From contig OZ024753.1 of assembly GCA_964016885.1 (NCBI GenBank), forward strand, positions 21,080,001 to 21,144,000: 64,000 nt of DNA, written 5' to 3'. A program made the translations under genes and the position numbers. The stretch comes from Eledone cirrhosa (lineage: Eukaryota). Shown one piece after another: positions 25,467 through 35,448 of this stretch (the stretch's first letter is position 1; the number at the start of each line of letters is the position of its first letter). The notes beneath the pieces were generated by a model. It worked only from the letters and a program-made list of their open reading frames with translations. It searched no databases and had not been told where the DNA came from.

Positions 25467-26220
25467 ATATTAAGATAGGGGGGGAAGAAAAAATGGCTTC
25501 ACTTGTGCTTTCAACAAATTTATTTTCTTCACAAAATCCAAAAAGAATTTTTCTTAAAAAAAATTATTTTATAAATTAAGTTGTTGGTTGTTGGTTAGGT
25601 CTTAAGAGTTCTTGGTTAACGTAGGAGGTATTGTTTCGTTTTTAGAAAGACCTTTCACGCTGAGGTGCGCTTGTCAAACTGATGTGTATGTGGTGTGTTG
25701 TTCTATATATAGGGATTTAACATGTCTGTGGTGTGGTGGGGGTTTCTTTTTCTCCCCCTTTAATAAGTGCATGGGTGTAGGTGTGTTGAAAAAGTGTTCA
25801 TAGCAGTAATGAGTTGAGACGGTGAGTAGGGTTGGGTGGGGAGAAATGTAGCAAGTGCGGCCTGCCCCGGTCATTCTCGAAAAATTCCTTTATTCAGGGG
25901 AAAAGCTTTTAGCATTGCTTTTGTGTTGAGAATGGTCACGGGCAAATCGCACCTGTCAAGTTTGTGAATAATTATTTTTTTCTTTCTTTCCTGAAGAATT
26001 TTTCTACGTCCATCCCAAAGTTAGTCCTTTGTTCAACACACACATATGTGTGCATATACGTACTTACACACACGGGCATATGTAGGAATATATAGGCACA
26101 CACCATCAATCACACACCCATGTACAAATACATACACAAAAACATATAGATACACATATAAAAACACACATACACATACGTACACACACGAATATGTACT
26201 CATACCTCCACATGGGCATA
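25467..26220. repeat. Left arm of ~750-bp long-range inverted repeat
   Basis: Near-identical reverse complement of 34695-35448. Confidence 0.92.
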
Positions 26221-26425
26221 TATATATATATATATATATATATATATATATATATATATATATAGTATTAGTTATACTATTTATGGTTATGTAAATACAA
26301 GACCTTAAGCAGTTGTAAGTATTTTACACACACCCTAAATAGTGGTAGGCAGTATTGTATTACTACCTTATTACCAGTAAGTTAAGTAGCTCAATGTAAA
26401 AACATCAGATGATTTACAGAGCAGT

Positions 26426-27015
26426 TATATGAAATATAAGAATCAAAGAACTGTTCAAAAGATTATTGTGCTTACAGCTGTTTCCTCCAAACCGAGGTTT
26501 GGATTCTTCGGAGCAATTTATTAATGCATGGACAGTTATATGACCTCCTTTTCATCCGAGAGACTATATCAATCATATAAAGAATTTGCCACCAGATCTA
26601 CCAACCTAACACTCTTATTTACCTACCTAAGTGCCTCTACCACACATATCTCTCTGCCACACTATATAAACAAGACGCACGTGCGTGCCACACATATAAC
26701 ATTTGCACTATATAACCGCTTATCTTCATGTTGTATTTTAACCTATATTTTTGATTTTTGATTGTACCTATTAATATAAATGTAATCTCGAAGTGTGTAC
26801 TGCCACTCTAAATTCTGTAATGAATGTTGACCCACAATGTTTGAATATGTATCAATGTTTGAATATGTATTGGTATGTCTCTCGGCTGAAAAGGAGGTCA
26901 TATAACTGTCCATGCATTAATAAATTGCTCCGAAGAATCCAAACCTCGGTTTGGAGGAAACAGCTGTAAGCACAATAATGTTTTGAACAGTTCTTTGATT
27001 CTTATATTTCATATA
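26426..27015. repeat. Fold-back element with 139-bp arms and hammerheads (CCGAAGA core) in both orientations
   Basis: 26426-26564 pairs with 26877-27015. The fold UGCU-CCGAAGA-aUCCAAACC/GGUUUGGAg-GAAA-CAGCUG-UA-AGCA lies at ~26924-26976 (+) and ~26465-26517 (-). Confidence 0.85.
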
Positions 27016-27414
27016 TTTCATATATTTCATATATATATATATATATATACACATATACATACATATATATATATATATATATATATATATATATATATAT
27101 ATATATATATATATATATATACATACATATACACATACACACACATACACACACACATATATATATATATATATATATATATATATATATATATATACAC
27201 ACACACACACATATATATATATATATATATATATATATATATATATATATATATATATATATATATATATATATATATATATATATATATGTAGGAGGTG
27301 AGTTTTATTGTAGTACAATAAAGCAATGCAGATATCGGATAAGAAGCACTCTACAGTTTGTAGGACTGGAGTATGCATAATATAAGATCAAAAGATGGTT
27401 AAAGGAGTTCCATG

Positions 27415-27485
27415 TATTTTATTATGCGCATTTCAAAAACAAACATCATCATGCAATAATATTTGTGTTTTCATCAGATAAAACA
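27415..27485 (-). ncRNA. Type I hammerhead ribozyme (inverted pLTR copy)
   Basis: Mirror of 29912-29982. Confidence 0.82.
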
Positions 27486-31718: not shown

Positions 31719-32322
31719 TCATTTTTTCGTGTTCAGTAGTGGTTTAAATTTTTCAATGAAGAACTCTTCTTTATATCTGCGGAAATGTTCGTTATCCGAC
31801 CATATCTTGAAGAAAGGGAAGATTGTGAATTTTCCCTTCCCGCATGATGCAAAGTGTGCGCTACATGTGGTATTTCTGACTGTGGGGTCTTTAATCTGTT
31901 GTTTATGTACCCGGACTCTATCATGTAATCCCGTTCCGGTTTCCCCAATGTAATACTCTTTACACTGTGGACATGTTGCGCAATATATTAGGTTTTTCGT
32001 TTTGCAGTTCATGTTAGCATTGACCTTGAAATTATCATGGTTTTTGAATGACAACTGTTTGCCCTCTTCGATGAGTTCACAGGTTCCACATCTAGGGTCC
32101 CCGCATTTCGTCACTTGCATTGATTCCACGTTGGTCGTAAATTTTGCCTTGGTAATTAGTTTTTTAAGGTTGGGTGCTTGGCGTCTGCTATAAATTATCT
32201 GTGTGTTTTTTAAGAGTGCATTCATTTTGGTAGATTGCTGTAGAATCGGGAGATACTGCTTAGCAGTTTTCACAATGTTGATGTTCCCTGGGTTGTGAGT
32301 GAAGGGAACATCAACATTGTGA
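31719..32322 (-). CDS. Neptune-type PLE zinc-finger linker and GIY-YIG endonuclease (5'-truncated)
   Basis: RQAPNLKKLITKA, KCGDPRCGTC and NCKTKNLIYCATCPQCKEYYIGETG..R..H. An inverted partial copy lies at 32323-32664 (+). Confidence 0.85.
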
Positions 32323-34050
32323 AAACAGTTGTCATTCAAAAACCATGATAATTTCAAGGTCAATGCTAACATGAACTGCAAAACGAAAAACCTAATATAT
32401 TGCGCAACATGTCCACAGTGTAAAGAGTATTACATTGGGGTAACCGGAACGGGATTACATGATAGAGTCCGGGTACATAAACAACAGATTAAAGACCCCA
32501 CAGTCAGAAATACCACATGTAGCGCACACTTTGCATCATGCGGGAAGGGAAAATTCACAATCTTCCCTTTCTTCAAGATATGGTCGGATAACGAACATTT
32601 CCGCAGATATAAAGAAGAATTCTTCATTGAAAAATTTAAACCACTACTGAACACGAAAAAATGAATTAACACTCGGAGGTAAAATTCCATTTCACTACCC
32701 CCCCCCCCCCTCTTCTTATGTATACACATGAATATCTGAATGAACGGTGTGTAGGGATGTATGGATGTATGTACGTGTGGGTATATATGTATGTGGGTGT
32801 GTGTGTGTGTGTGTGTGTGTGTGTGTGTATATACATATATGTATGGATGTGTGTATGTTTGTATGTGTGTGTGTATATATATATGTATATGTATATGTAT
32901 ATATATATATATATATATATATATATGTATGTGTGTGTGTGTGTATATATGTGTATATGTACATGTATGTATGTGTATGTTTGTATATGTGTGTGTGTGT
33001 ATATATATATATATATGTATATATATATATATATATATATATGTATATATATGGATAGATATGTATGTTTATGTGTGTGTGTATGTATGTGTATGTACCT
33101 ATATATATGTGTGTGTGTGTATGTATGTGCATATATGTATATATGTGTGTACATATGTGTATGTTTCTGTTTGTGTATATGTATGTATGTATGTAGATGT
33201 ATGTGTATATATATGTATATATATGTATATGTATGTGTATGTGTATATGTGTCTTTATGTGCTCTTATACGCATATATATATATATATATGTATGTGTGT
33301 ATGTGTGTATGTATGTGTGTGTATGTGTATATATATGTATATATATATGTATGTATATATGTATATATATATATATATATGTATGTATGTATGTACATGT
33401 ATGTGTATGTATGTATGTGTGTATGTGTGTACTTGTATGTGTATGTGTGTGTATGTGTATATATATATATACATATATATATATATATATATATATGTGT
33501 ATATGTATGTGTATATATATGTATATGGATATGTATGTATGTGTATATGTATGTGTATATGTGTGTATGTGTATGTGTGTATTTATGTGTACATATGTGT
33601 ATATGTATGTGTATGTATGTGTGTATATATATATATATATATATATATATATATGTATATATATATATATATATATATATGTATGTATGTGTGTGTGTGT
33701 GTGTGTGTGTATGCCTCTCTCTTTATATGTGTATATGTATATATGGATGTATGTGTGTATATGTGTGTGTATGTATGCATGTATGTGTGAACGGAGGGGT
33801 ATATATACGGACATATGTGTGTGTGTGTGTGTGTGTGTATACACGTGCGTGTGTGTGTGTGTGTGTGTGTGTGTGTGTGTGTGTGTGTGTGTGTGTGTGT
33901 GTGTGTGTGTATGTGTGTGTGTGTATGTGTGCGTGTATGTGTATATATGTATATTTAGTTATGTATCTTTATGTGTGTATATGTATGTGTGTGTATGTAT
34001 GTATATGTATGTATATATGTATATATGTATATTTATATATATATATATAT

Positions 34051-34500
34051 ACAATTAAGTTAAAATTCACGCTCTATGCAAATTAGTCTGCCCACTACTA
34101 ATTTTCATAGAAAAAGCATATAACGATATGTGCTTTTACGATTCTCTAGAAAGGCCGGAAGATAGGTAAATATTGCTGATGAGATGTAACAACATCGAAA
34201 CTAGTCCAATATTCCTTGTCTGGCTTTCTGGAGAATAGAGGAAAGGTGTTTCCTCAAAAACCAGTATGACTCTAAAAACCGGTTTGTCTGTGTGTTTACA
34301 TACAGAATAGCTGGACACTCACAGTAAAGTGACCAGTGAAAAACTCGGTACATCTACATATGTACACGTGTGTGTATTCATATGCATACTAGTATTTCAG
34401 TATACATATGTGGATGTACATTTTTAACTTAATTGTTTAAGCGTCAGTCATACAAAAGTGAGTTACAAACGAAACGAAATTTAATTTCGTTATTTGTTTT
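34051..34500 (+). mobile_element. Small non-coding hammerhead-bearing element with a 15-bp inverted repeat
   Basis: ACAATTAAGTTAAAA (34051-34065) and TTTTAACTTAATTGT (34422-34436); (TA)n flanks. Confidence 0.6.
34169..34213 (+). ncRNA. Canonical minimal type I hammerhead ribozyme
   Basis: AAUAUUG-CUGAUGA-GAUG-uaacaa-CAUC-GAAA-CUAG-UC-CAAUAUU; GUC cleavage triplet. Confidence 0.9.
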
Positions 34501-34694
34501 TATATATATATATATATATATGTGTGTGTGTGTGTGTGTGTGTGTGTGTGTATGTGTGTGTATGTGTATATGTATGTATGTATATATATATATATATATA
34601 TATATATATATATATATATATATATATATATATGTATGTATATGTGTATATATATGTGTGTATATATATATATATATATATATATATATATATA

Positions 34695-35448
34695 TATGCC
34701 CATGTGGAGGTATGAGTACATATTCGTGTGTGTACGTATGTGTATGTGTGTTTTTATATGTGTCTCTATATGTTTTTGTGTATGTATTTGTACATGGGTG
34801 TGTGATTGATGGTGTGTGCCTATATATTCCTACATATGCCCGTGTGTGTAAGTACGTATATGCACACATATGTGTGTGTTGAACAAAGGACTAACTTTGG
34901 GATGGACGTAGAAAAATTCTTCAGGAAAGAAAGAAAAAAATAATTATTCACAAACTTGACAGGTGCGATTTGCCCGTGACCATTCTCAACACAAAAGCAA
35001 TGCTAAAAGCTTTTTCCCCTGAATAAAGGAATTTTTCGAGAATGACCGGGGCAGGCCGCACTTGCTACATTTCTCCCCACCCAACCCTACTCACCGTCTC
35101 AACTCATTACTGCTATGAACACTTTTTCAACACACCTACACCCATGCACTTATTAAAGGGGGAGAAAAGAAACCCCCACCACACCACAGATATGTTAAAT
35201 CCCTATATATAGAACAACACACCACATACACATCAGTTTGACAAGCGCACCTCAGCGTGAAAGGTCTTTCTAAAAACGAAACAATACCTCCTACGTTAAC
35301 CAAGAACTCCTAAAACCTAACCAACAACCAACAACTTAATTTATAAAATAATTTTTTTTAAGAAAAATTCTTTTTGGATTTTGTGAAGAAAATAAATTTG
35401 TTGAAAGCACAATTGATGCCATTTTTTCTTCCCCCCTGTCTTAATATA
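34695..35448. repeat. Right arm of ~750-bp long-range inverted repeat
   Basis: Reverse complement of 25467-26220, followed by a ~35-bp unique tail and then (TA)n. Confidence 0.92.

What the first reader, a model, noticed from the sequence alone, without database searches (positions are those of the whole stretch)
25467..35448. 10-kb nested palindrome built by serial insertion into (TA)n
Seen: near-identical ~750-bp inverted arms (25467-26220, 34695-35448) enclose ~8.5 kb made of further inverted-repeat elements and microsatellite. These are 26426-27015, 27291-30020, 30021-34050 (itself interrupted by 30830-31320) and 34051-34500. Inference: each element brings or extends (TA)n that is the target for the next, a self-amplifying sink. 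The nesting gives a relative insertion order. A transcript across it would be a multi-branched dsRNA, and the DNA may be cruciform- or recombination-prone.
Basis: partly seen in the sequence, partly recalled or inferred. Interest (0 to 1): 0.75.

Follow-up and report, generated by a model that had tools for sequence, protein, structure and literature searches.

The report
Mirrored retrotransposon carrying a landing pad
The 10-kb palindrome is one broken, two-armed copy of a Penelope-type jumping gene whose own tail region carries TA repeats, and four other TA-seeking elements later landed side by side in those repeats; the mirror shape is a known trait of this class and likely arises when both cut DNA ends are copied at once.

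Summary
The inverted repeats are real, but the parse is wrong. The 'outer arms' and the '30021-34050 element' are one element. It is a 5'-truncated Neptune-type Penelope-like retrotransposon (PLE) with an inverted second arm and a 3' UTR holding about 1.2-1.5 kb of TA/CA microsatellite; dispersed copies show the same continuity. Four guests sit side by side in its TA tracts, none inside another: two Hydra-clade PLE stubs, one short derivative of a third Hydra family, and one 466-bp hammerhead retrozyme monomer. All five have two arms and a tail on one side, the published PLE anatomy (PMC8557442). So nesting is one level deep, not serial. Genome-wide, 16 of 45 measurable host copies hold foreign DNA in the microsatellite part, against none in the unique 3' end. 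In 24 of 24 arm pairs the tail is on one arm only, on the shorter arm in 12 of 17 clear cases, which favours two cDNAs primed from both cut ends over fold-back copying. This scan already noted such two-ended insertion for retrozymes elsewhere in this genome. Known class; modest new detail.

The parts
25470..32302 (-). Host H, long arm: Neptune-type PLE 3' part (ORF remnant, microsatellite-rich 3' UTR, 750-bp unique 3' end at 25470-26220), interrupted by G1, G2 and G3; no tail
31719..32302 (-). H ORF2 remnant, residues 603-796 of the 796-aa RT-endonuclease frame (CX4CxxC linker, GIY-YIG with CCHH)
   Evidence: PF01541, E 5.5e-07; 98.5% to full-length copy
32303..32326 (+). Central joint: 24-nt inverted copy of ORF nt 1821-1844, ending in a 4-nt microhomology with the start of the right arm
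   Evidence: other copies continue with ordinary ORF at 32302
32323..35446 (+). Host H, short arm: ORF residues 684-796 (32323-32664), 3' UTR with microsatellite, unique 3' end 34698-35446; interrupted by G4
35447..35482 (+). H tail (about 35 bp, one arm only); equals the start of the next unit in tandem copies
   Evidence: (L082, L078, L086)
26265..27020 (+). Guest G1: 5'-truncated Hydra-clade PLE; inverted tail 26265-26425, inverted arm to 26564, 4-nt microhomology, main arm; hammerhead-like core with a U4C change near 26930 (read by eye, fold)
27293..30012 (+). Guest G2: 5'-truncated Hydra-clade PLE; inverted tail 27293-27386, inverted arm to 28066, ORF residues 548-821 at 28075-28899, type I hammerhead cores at 29920 (+) and 27477 (-)
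30832..31318 (+). Guest G3: short two-armed non-coding derivative of a third Hydra family (longer coding relative in L181); tail of about 81 bp on the left; hammerhead cores at 31220 (+) and 31019 (-)
34052..34500 (+). Guest G4: most of one monomer of a ~466-bp tandem hammerhead (retrozyme-type) family; 15-17 bp inverted arm on the left, tail 34436-34500, hammerhead core at 34176
   Evidence: (RF02275, 38.9 bits, below the 52-bit cut-off)
20599..24973 (+). Left neighbour E2, outside the finding: 5'-truncated Hydra-clade PLE with its own long internal microsatellite and its own guest at 22476-23046

Best explanation
The locus is one 5'-truncated, two-armed Neptune-type Penelope-like retrotransposon whose 3' UTR carries TA/CA microsatellite, with four later TA-flanked insertions of Penelope-type elements in those tracts; each mirror pair was likely made by reverse transcription from both ends of a cut in (TA)n, the two cDNAs then being joined head to head. 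Shown: element identities, boundaries, one-sided tails, central joints with microhomology or short templated inserts, one-level nesting, and enrichment of foreign DNA in the microsatellite part of host copies. Inferred: the GIY-YIG endonuclease cuts (TA)n; one DNA end primes at the RNA's 3' tail end and the other at an internal TA-like site some 35-160 nt upstream; both use RNA from the same source element (one tandem RNA or two sister RNAs); end-joining fuses the truncated cDNAs; G3 and G4 borrow enzymes in trans. Each new host copy thus plants more than 1 kb of target per arm, which other TA-seeking elements then use.
For: Full-length relatives of the host have a 796-aa frame with GLKF, DKG, RT (PF00078, E 5.6e-11), CX4CxxC and CCHH GIY-YIG. 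G2's 821-aa frame has RWT, DKT, CxCX5C, CxxC and CxH, the Hydra diagnostics of PMC8557442 section 11. G1's longer copies match it at 37-47%. G3's arm is the 3' end of a Hydra element in L181. G4's hammerhead 32-mer has 1630 exact hits (control 0), in ~466-bp tandem arrays that are often back to back. The paper states that an inverted 5'-truncated copy and a 30-40 bp one-sided tail are typical of PLEs.

Tail on exactly one arm in 24 of 24 host arm pairs from 23 loci. Of 26 two-armed loci picked showed no tail and 2 were ambiguous; of the other 17 the tail was on the shorter arm in 12. There, and in the window, neither arm is contained in the other. Arms of a pair differ at 31 of 673 family-variable site comparisons (4.6%) against 25.8% between loci. 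G3 centres take 13 forms in 20 parsed of 24 rows, so that palindrome is remade at each insertion.

Sink: of 60 host loci, 45 had both UTR ends; 16 of the 45 hold foreign DNA in 51.6 kb of native microsatellite-rich UTR, 0 in 32.5 kb of unique 3' end (P about 4e-4).
Against: No canonical hammerhead was found in the host unit, although the paper calls them present in all PLE clades except Naiad and most Chlamys. Clade assignment rests on motifs and visual comparison with the paper's supplementary alignments; no tree was built. Pfam found nothing in the 821-aa Hydra protein. Arm concordance could also come from gene conversion after insertion. In 5 of 17 loci the tail is on the longer arm, which fold-back copying would also give, and the host's 24-nt joint insert is itself a small fold-back. 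The sink control compares parts of the same element, not host TA against age-matched TA elsewhere. The 60 loci are the best-scoring hits, and 15 of them were dropped as unmeasurable. Many foreign segments were not classified. No long reads span the locus.
Confidence: 0.85

Rival explanations
1. Serial nesting: five independent inverted-repeat elements, each bringing or extending the TA target of the next.
For: All guests are TA-flanked. In L076 a guest does bring about 3 kb of new microsatellite into a host UTR. The TA run left of G1 is 23 units against a median of 7 in 86 host arms.
Against: The outer and 'inner' host parts are contiguous in dispersed copies and have equal arm divergence. No guest lies in another guest. 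The guest-free mirror tract in the right arm is also long, 18 units.
Confidence: 0.05
2. Same elements, but each palindrome is made by one cDNA folding back and copying itself, with the tail added or trimmed during resolution.
For: Arms are concordant at variable sites. The host joint holds a 24-nt fold-back. PMC8557442 ascribes the tail to endonuclease-mediated resolution.
Against: In the window and in 12 of 17 clear loci the shorter arm carries a tail that the longer arm lacks, while the longer arm reaches further 5'. A copy cannot hold sequence absent from its template unless the long arm is trimmed at the same site every time.
Confidence: 0.25
3. Two independent host insertions in opposite orientation, or a DNA-level inverted duplication after insertion.
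For: The family is abundant, and L205 shows that DNA-level duplication of such copies happens.
Against: The arms meet at a seamless joint inside the ORF with no target DNA between them. They share a subfamily haplotype at 42 of 43 variable sites. The same tails-out layout recurs at 22 other loci.
Confidence: 0.04
4. Fold-back assembly artefact.
For: Inverted repeats and long TA runs are hard to assemble; no spanning read was available.
Against: Arms differ by 11 substitutions and 4 gaps, carry different guests and differ in microsatellite lengths. The layout recurs genome-wide with different truncation points.
Confidence: 0.02

Closest known systems
Neptune-clade Penelope-like elements (Craig et al. 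2021, PMC8557442; passages, section 11 and supplementary passages seen, figures not held)
   Same: RT followed by C-terminal GIY-YIG with CX2-5CxxC linker and CCHH; 5' truncation, partial tandems, inverted 5'-truncated copy, 30-40 bp one-sided tail, microsatellite insertion bias.
   Different: The host has a 2.1-2.3 kb 3' UTR with more than 1 kb of internal TA/CA microsatellite, no canonical hammerhead by my scans, and (in full-length copies) a ~400-aa upstream ORF overlapping ORF2 in the -1 frame. The paper's Fig. 1 legend allows a frameshift-separated ORF1 in some PLE types; I could not see which.
Hydra-clade PLEs, including Hydra-1_Obim (PMC8557442 section 11 and supplement)
   Same: G2, G1, the G3 relative and E2: RWK-like, DKT, CxCX5C, CxxC and CxH motifs, no CCHH, (TA)n insertion, hammerhead near the 3' end.
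   Different: Several distinct families (37-53% identical to each other), longer than the <3 kb described; tails of 80-160 bp; E2 has a 6.9-kb unit with internal microsatellite. By eye G2 is not the listed Hydra-1_Obim sequence.
Animal non-LTR retrozymes (bioRxiv 10.64898/2026.07.22.740005, search listing and passages seen) and PLE minimal hammerheads (PMC4209133, passages seen)
   Same: G4 is a non-coding tandem unit with a type I hammerhead with short palindromic stem III; G3 is a non-coding PLE 3'-end derivative.
   Different: Here they carry the PLE insertion scars (two arms, one-sided tail, TA flanks). Self-cleavage was not tested.
SaTar arrays of plants (PMC5907723, abstract seen); SSR-carrying Penelope copies in penaeid shrimp (PMC7878876, passages seen)
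   Same: Unrelated elements lined up, uninterrupted, in microsatellite; Penelope copies that move their internal SSRs with them.
   Different: SaTars are Mutator-like DNA elements. The shrimp passages do not describe the carried SSR as a target for later insertions.

Membership tests
Penelope-like element, Neptune clade (host H) | RT followed by C-terminal GIY-YIG endonuclease | tested here: met
   PF00078 at 282-475 and PF01541 at 706-779 in L078; window remnant 98-99% identical
Penelope-like element, Neptune clade (host H) | GxKF/Y and DKG motifs; CX2-5CxxC linker; CCHH in the endonuclease | tested here: met
   Read in the 796-aa frame; spacing like the Neptune rows and unlike the shortened Nematis rows of the supplement
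Penelope-like element, Neptune clade (host H) | Partial tandems (pLTR), inverted 5'-truncated copy, one-sided tail | tested here: met
   L082 tandem; 24 of 24 arm pairs with one tail
Penelope-like element, Neptune clade (host H) | Hammerhead motif in the pLTR | tested here: not met
   No canonical or minimal core in the L082 unit by pattern scans or Rfam. Lowers the claim 'canonical Neptune', not 'works like a PLE'
Penelope-like element, Neptune clade (host H) | RT phylogeny within Neptune | not tested
   No reference set was aligned; the paper itself finds Neptune paraphyletic
Hydra clade (G2, G1, G3 relative) | RWK-like, DKT, CxCX5C, CxxC, CxH; no CCHH | tested here: met
   All in G2's 821-aa frame; RW(K/R), DKT, CxCX5C, CxxC and CxH in L181; RWR, DKT, CxxC and CxH in G1 copies, linker not covered
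Hydra clade (G2, G1, G3 relative) | Hammerhead near the 3' end; insertion into (TA)n | tested here: met
   Cores at 29920/27477 and 31220/31019; G1 has a U4C variant read by eye; TA flanks
Non-LTR retrozyme (G4) | Short non-coding tandem unit with a type I hammerhead | tested here: met
   ~466-bp period arrays, 1630 exact hits; Rfam HH9 E 4.2e-07, below the curated cut-off
Non-LTR retrozyme (G4) | Self-cleavage and circular RNA | not testable with these tools
   Needs RNA work
Foldback / MITE DNA transposons | Fixed terminal inverted repeats on both ends, fixed internal structure, transposase partner | tested here: not met
   Arm lengths and centres vary copy to copy, ends are asymmetric, coding remnants are RT/GIY-YIG

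The most novel reading that the evidence does not exclude
TA-targeting Penelope-like retrotransposons here carry their own target inside the transcript. At least two autonomous families (the host and E2) plant one to several kb of TA/CA microsatellite per arm at every insertion. This creates positive feedback that seeds the genome's microsatellite-TE clusters and feeds a whole guild of other elements. Each insertion is written by two reverse-transcription events from both ends of the cut, on RNA of a single source element.
Probability: 0.45. Interest if true: 0.55.

Novelty: new member of a known kind. Interest (0 to 1): 0.3.

Why it matters
The palindrome needs no new mechanism: it is a large, decorated example of published PLE anatomy. 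Two details add something. First, a young retrotransposon that carries its class's target has collected secondary insertions in at least a third of measurable copies, a concrete route by which microsatellite-TE clusters grow in SSR-rich genomes. Second, the tail and arm statistics on an autonomous, nearly intact family constrain the still unresolved PLE insertion mechanism (two primed ends rather than self-copying) and give natural substrates for an assay. In practice, repeat annotators will split such loci into false 'foldback' families.

Tried and rejected
Rfam on the region returned mostly microsatellite-driven miRNA matches below cut-off; rejected. The own-genome DNA search for G4 was blank because common words are skipped; a pattern search solved it. 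Sequencing-run search: no RNA holder listed, all shares under 5 words. Four runs laid on 31700-32700 gave no piece across the joint, so they neither support nor refute it. Hitch-hiking of guests with the host: among 31 first foreign segments only L205's two tandem units share a guest at the same offset, and they also share a truncation point, so this is DNA duplication. TA extension by guests: inconclusive. The ORF part of the insertion control (0 in about 46 kb) was dropped because it counted only unbroken alignments. The idea that H sits inside E2 was rejected: E2 ends at 24973. The idea that G3 spreads as a ready-made palindrome was rejected: centres vary. The upstream ORF1 was not searched against protein databases. 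Literature searches listed no paper on PLE 3' UTR microsatellite acting as a target for later insertions. The library lacks most subscription journals, older Arkhipova papers were not seen, and supplements of the bioRxiv preprint and the other papers were not seen. PMC13282606 (passages) gave nothing on nesting.
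Full report
Observation. A masked self-comparison confirms the outer arms and four inner inverted pairs. Global alignments give 7 substitutions in 745 bases for the outer pair and 4 in 425 for 31636-32060 / 32323-32749, both 0.94%. The others give 3 in 150 (G1), 0 in 680 (G2) and 2 in 187 (G3); 34052-34500 (G4) has only a 15-17 bp arm. The window lies on contig C13 of a 3.0-Gb genome. Earlier scan notes guess an octopus; I did not test that.

The parse changes. The outer arm is a dispersed family (1266 first-look candidates, 40 scored, 97-99% identical). 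In the 30 loci read, most continue inward through TA/CA tracts into the sequence that the window shows from about 30021. Nine landmarks occur in mirrored order in both window arms. After subtracting the guests, stop-to-end lengths are 2287 and 2333 bp, against 2090, 2275 and 2279 bp in three guest-free copies. So the outer arms, the microsatellite arms and the central core are one element, H. Four guests interrupt it, three in the left arm and one in the right, each flanked by TA on both sides and none inside another.

Identity. The core encodes a GIY-YIG domain on both strands. A protein search found 150 scored matches at 85-100%, several in 796-aa open frames. These have GLKF, DKG, RT, a CX4CxxC linker and a CCHH GIY-YIG at the C-terminus, the Neptune-type PLE layout of PMC8557442 (passages, section 11 and supplement passages). 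G2 is a stub of an 821-aa family (137 scored matches at 98-100%) with the Hydra diagnostics; Pfam does not recognise it. G1's longer copies encode another Hydra protein, 37-47% identical to G2's. G3's arm and tail are 87-97% identical to the 3' end of a Hydra element in L181. G4 is one monomer of a ~466-bp hammerhead repeat with 1630 exact hits of a 32-mer, control 0. Type I hammerhead cores with short palindromic stem III lie at 29920, 27477, 31220, 31019 and 34176, as described for PLE ends in PMC4209133 (passages). Only the G4 core scored in Rfam, below cut-off. H has no canonical core.

Why everything is a palindrome. The paper describes an inverted 5'-truncated copy and a one-sided 30-40 bp tail as usual PLE anatomy. 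All five elements show it. H's tail is the first ~39 bp of the next unit in tandem copies. H's joint is ORF nt 1808, then a 24-nt inverted copy of nt 1821-1844, then a 4-nt microhomology into nt 2050; G1's joint is a 4-nt microhomology. Across 113 distinct host 3' ends, 24 tails-out pairs from 23 loci (L205 counted twice) all have the tail on exactly one arm. Arms of a pair differ at 4.6% of family-variable comparisons (31 of 673) against 25.8% between loci, and at 1.7% against 3.8% of all sites. Among 26 two-armed loci picked by hand showed no tail and 2 were ambiguous; the tail was on the shorter arm in 12 and the longer in 5. In the 12, as in the window, each arm holds sequence that the other lacks, which plain self-copying cannot give. 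G3 centres take 13 forms in the 20 of 24 rows parsed, all within a few bases of one 5' end. I infer priming from both DNA ends on RNA of one source, then end-joining. This step is inferred; I put it near 65%. Gene conversion could add to arm concordance. Earlier notes proposed the same two-ended writing for retrozymes in this genome; I tested it independently on H.

The sink. I read 60 host loci, the best-ranked of the 150 matches after the window's own. In 45 both UTR ends were in view. Sixteen of the 45 hold foreign DNA of 60 bp or more in 51.6 kb of native microsatellite-rich UTR; none does in 32.5 kb of the unique 3' end (P about 4e-4, one event per copy). The 15 dropped loci include clear large guests such as L071, so 36% is probably a floor. 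The guests are varied: Hydra and other GIY-YIG elements, hammerhead elements, and unclassified repeats; 23 of 26 segments recur in other fetched loci. No case of a guest travelling with the host was found in 31 segments. The control is internal to the element and does not show that host TA is a better target than other TA. Penelope copies moving their internal SSRs are reported in shrimp (PMC7878876, passages), and side-by-side arrays in microsatellite are reported for plant SaTars (PMC5907723, abstract).

The site is a sink and the guests postdate the host. But there is one carrier and one level, and no order among guests follows from position; G2 is probably youngest (P=0.009 against host). 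A self-amplifying step does exist at family level: the left neighbour E2 is a Hydra element with an 824-aa frame and a 6.9-kb unit rich in microsatellite, and in L076 a copy sits inside a host UTR. On DNA structure, from general knowledge only G3 (spacer about 27 bp) and the TA runs look short-spaced enough for cruciforms; the host centre has 262 unpaired bases. Guest-free UTR spans range from 148 to 2193 bp, so the tract is unstable in length. No RNA holder was listed, so the dsRNA idea stays open.

Verdict. Real, explained by known PLE biology, with a corrected anatomy and two quantitative additions. Interest 0.3; new members of known kinds.

Noticed in passing
L078, L086, L171, L182, L184, L187, L191, L201 (full-length host copies; not in the window): A ~400-aa upstream ORF overlaps the RT-endonuclease frame in the -1 frame at an A-AAA-AAG heptamer (recalled as a classic slippery site), and ORF2 has no Met before the DKG motif. 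18 of 19 overlap sequences keep the -1 layout; L171 is fused by one extra A. No strong downstream hairpin was predicted. Suggests programmed frameshifting.
   Followed up: partly
window 20599-24973: E2, a young Hydra-clade PLE (copies about 100% identical) with kilobases of internal microsatellite, a short inverted tail piece on the left and its own guest at 22476-23046; that guest family also sits in host copies L009 and L028.
   Followed up: partly
window 18086-18405 and 19127-19405: Two further palindromes (92% and 80% self-match) in the same microsatellite cluster; the cluster runs from about 17335 to 35680.
   Followed up: no
window 60325-60508, 43180-43866, 61077, 17511: A short G2-family end with tail, an older Hydra-like remnant (34-37% to the G2 protein) and two more hammerhead cores.
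   Followed up: no
L205: A two-armed host copy with its guest appears duplicated in tandem at DNA level (same truncation point, guest 99.6% identical).
   Followed up: partly
window 12573-15951 (-), 5908-7149 (-), 48300-49019 (-), 51292-52943 (-): Open frames that read by eye like an LTR-retrotransposon gag/pol/integrase set, LINE endonuclease pieces and Helitron-like pieces; no family search was run. No host gene was evident among frames of 170 aa or more.
   Followed up: no
L183:4840-9362: A tandem array of about 420-bp period directly beyond a host copy whose microsatellite UTR is deleted.
   Followed up: no
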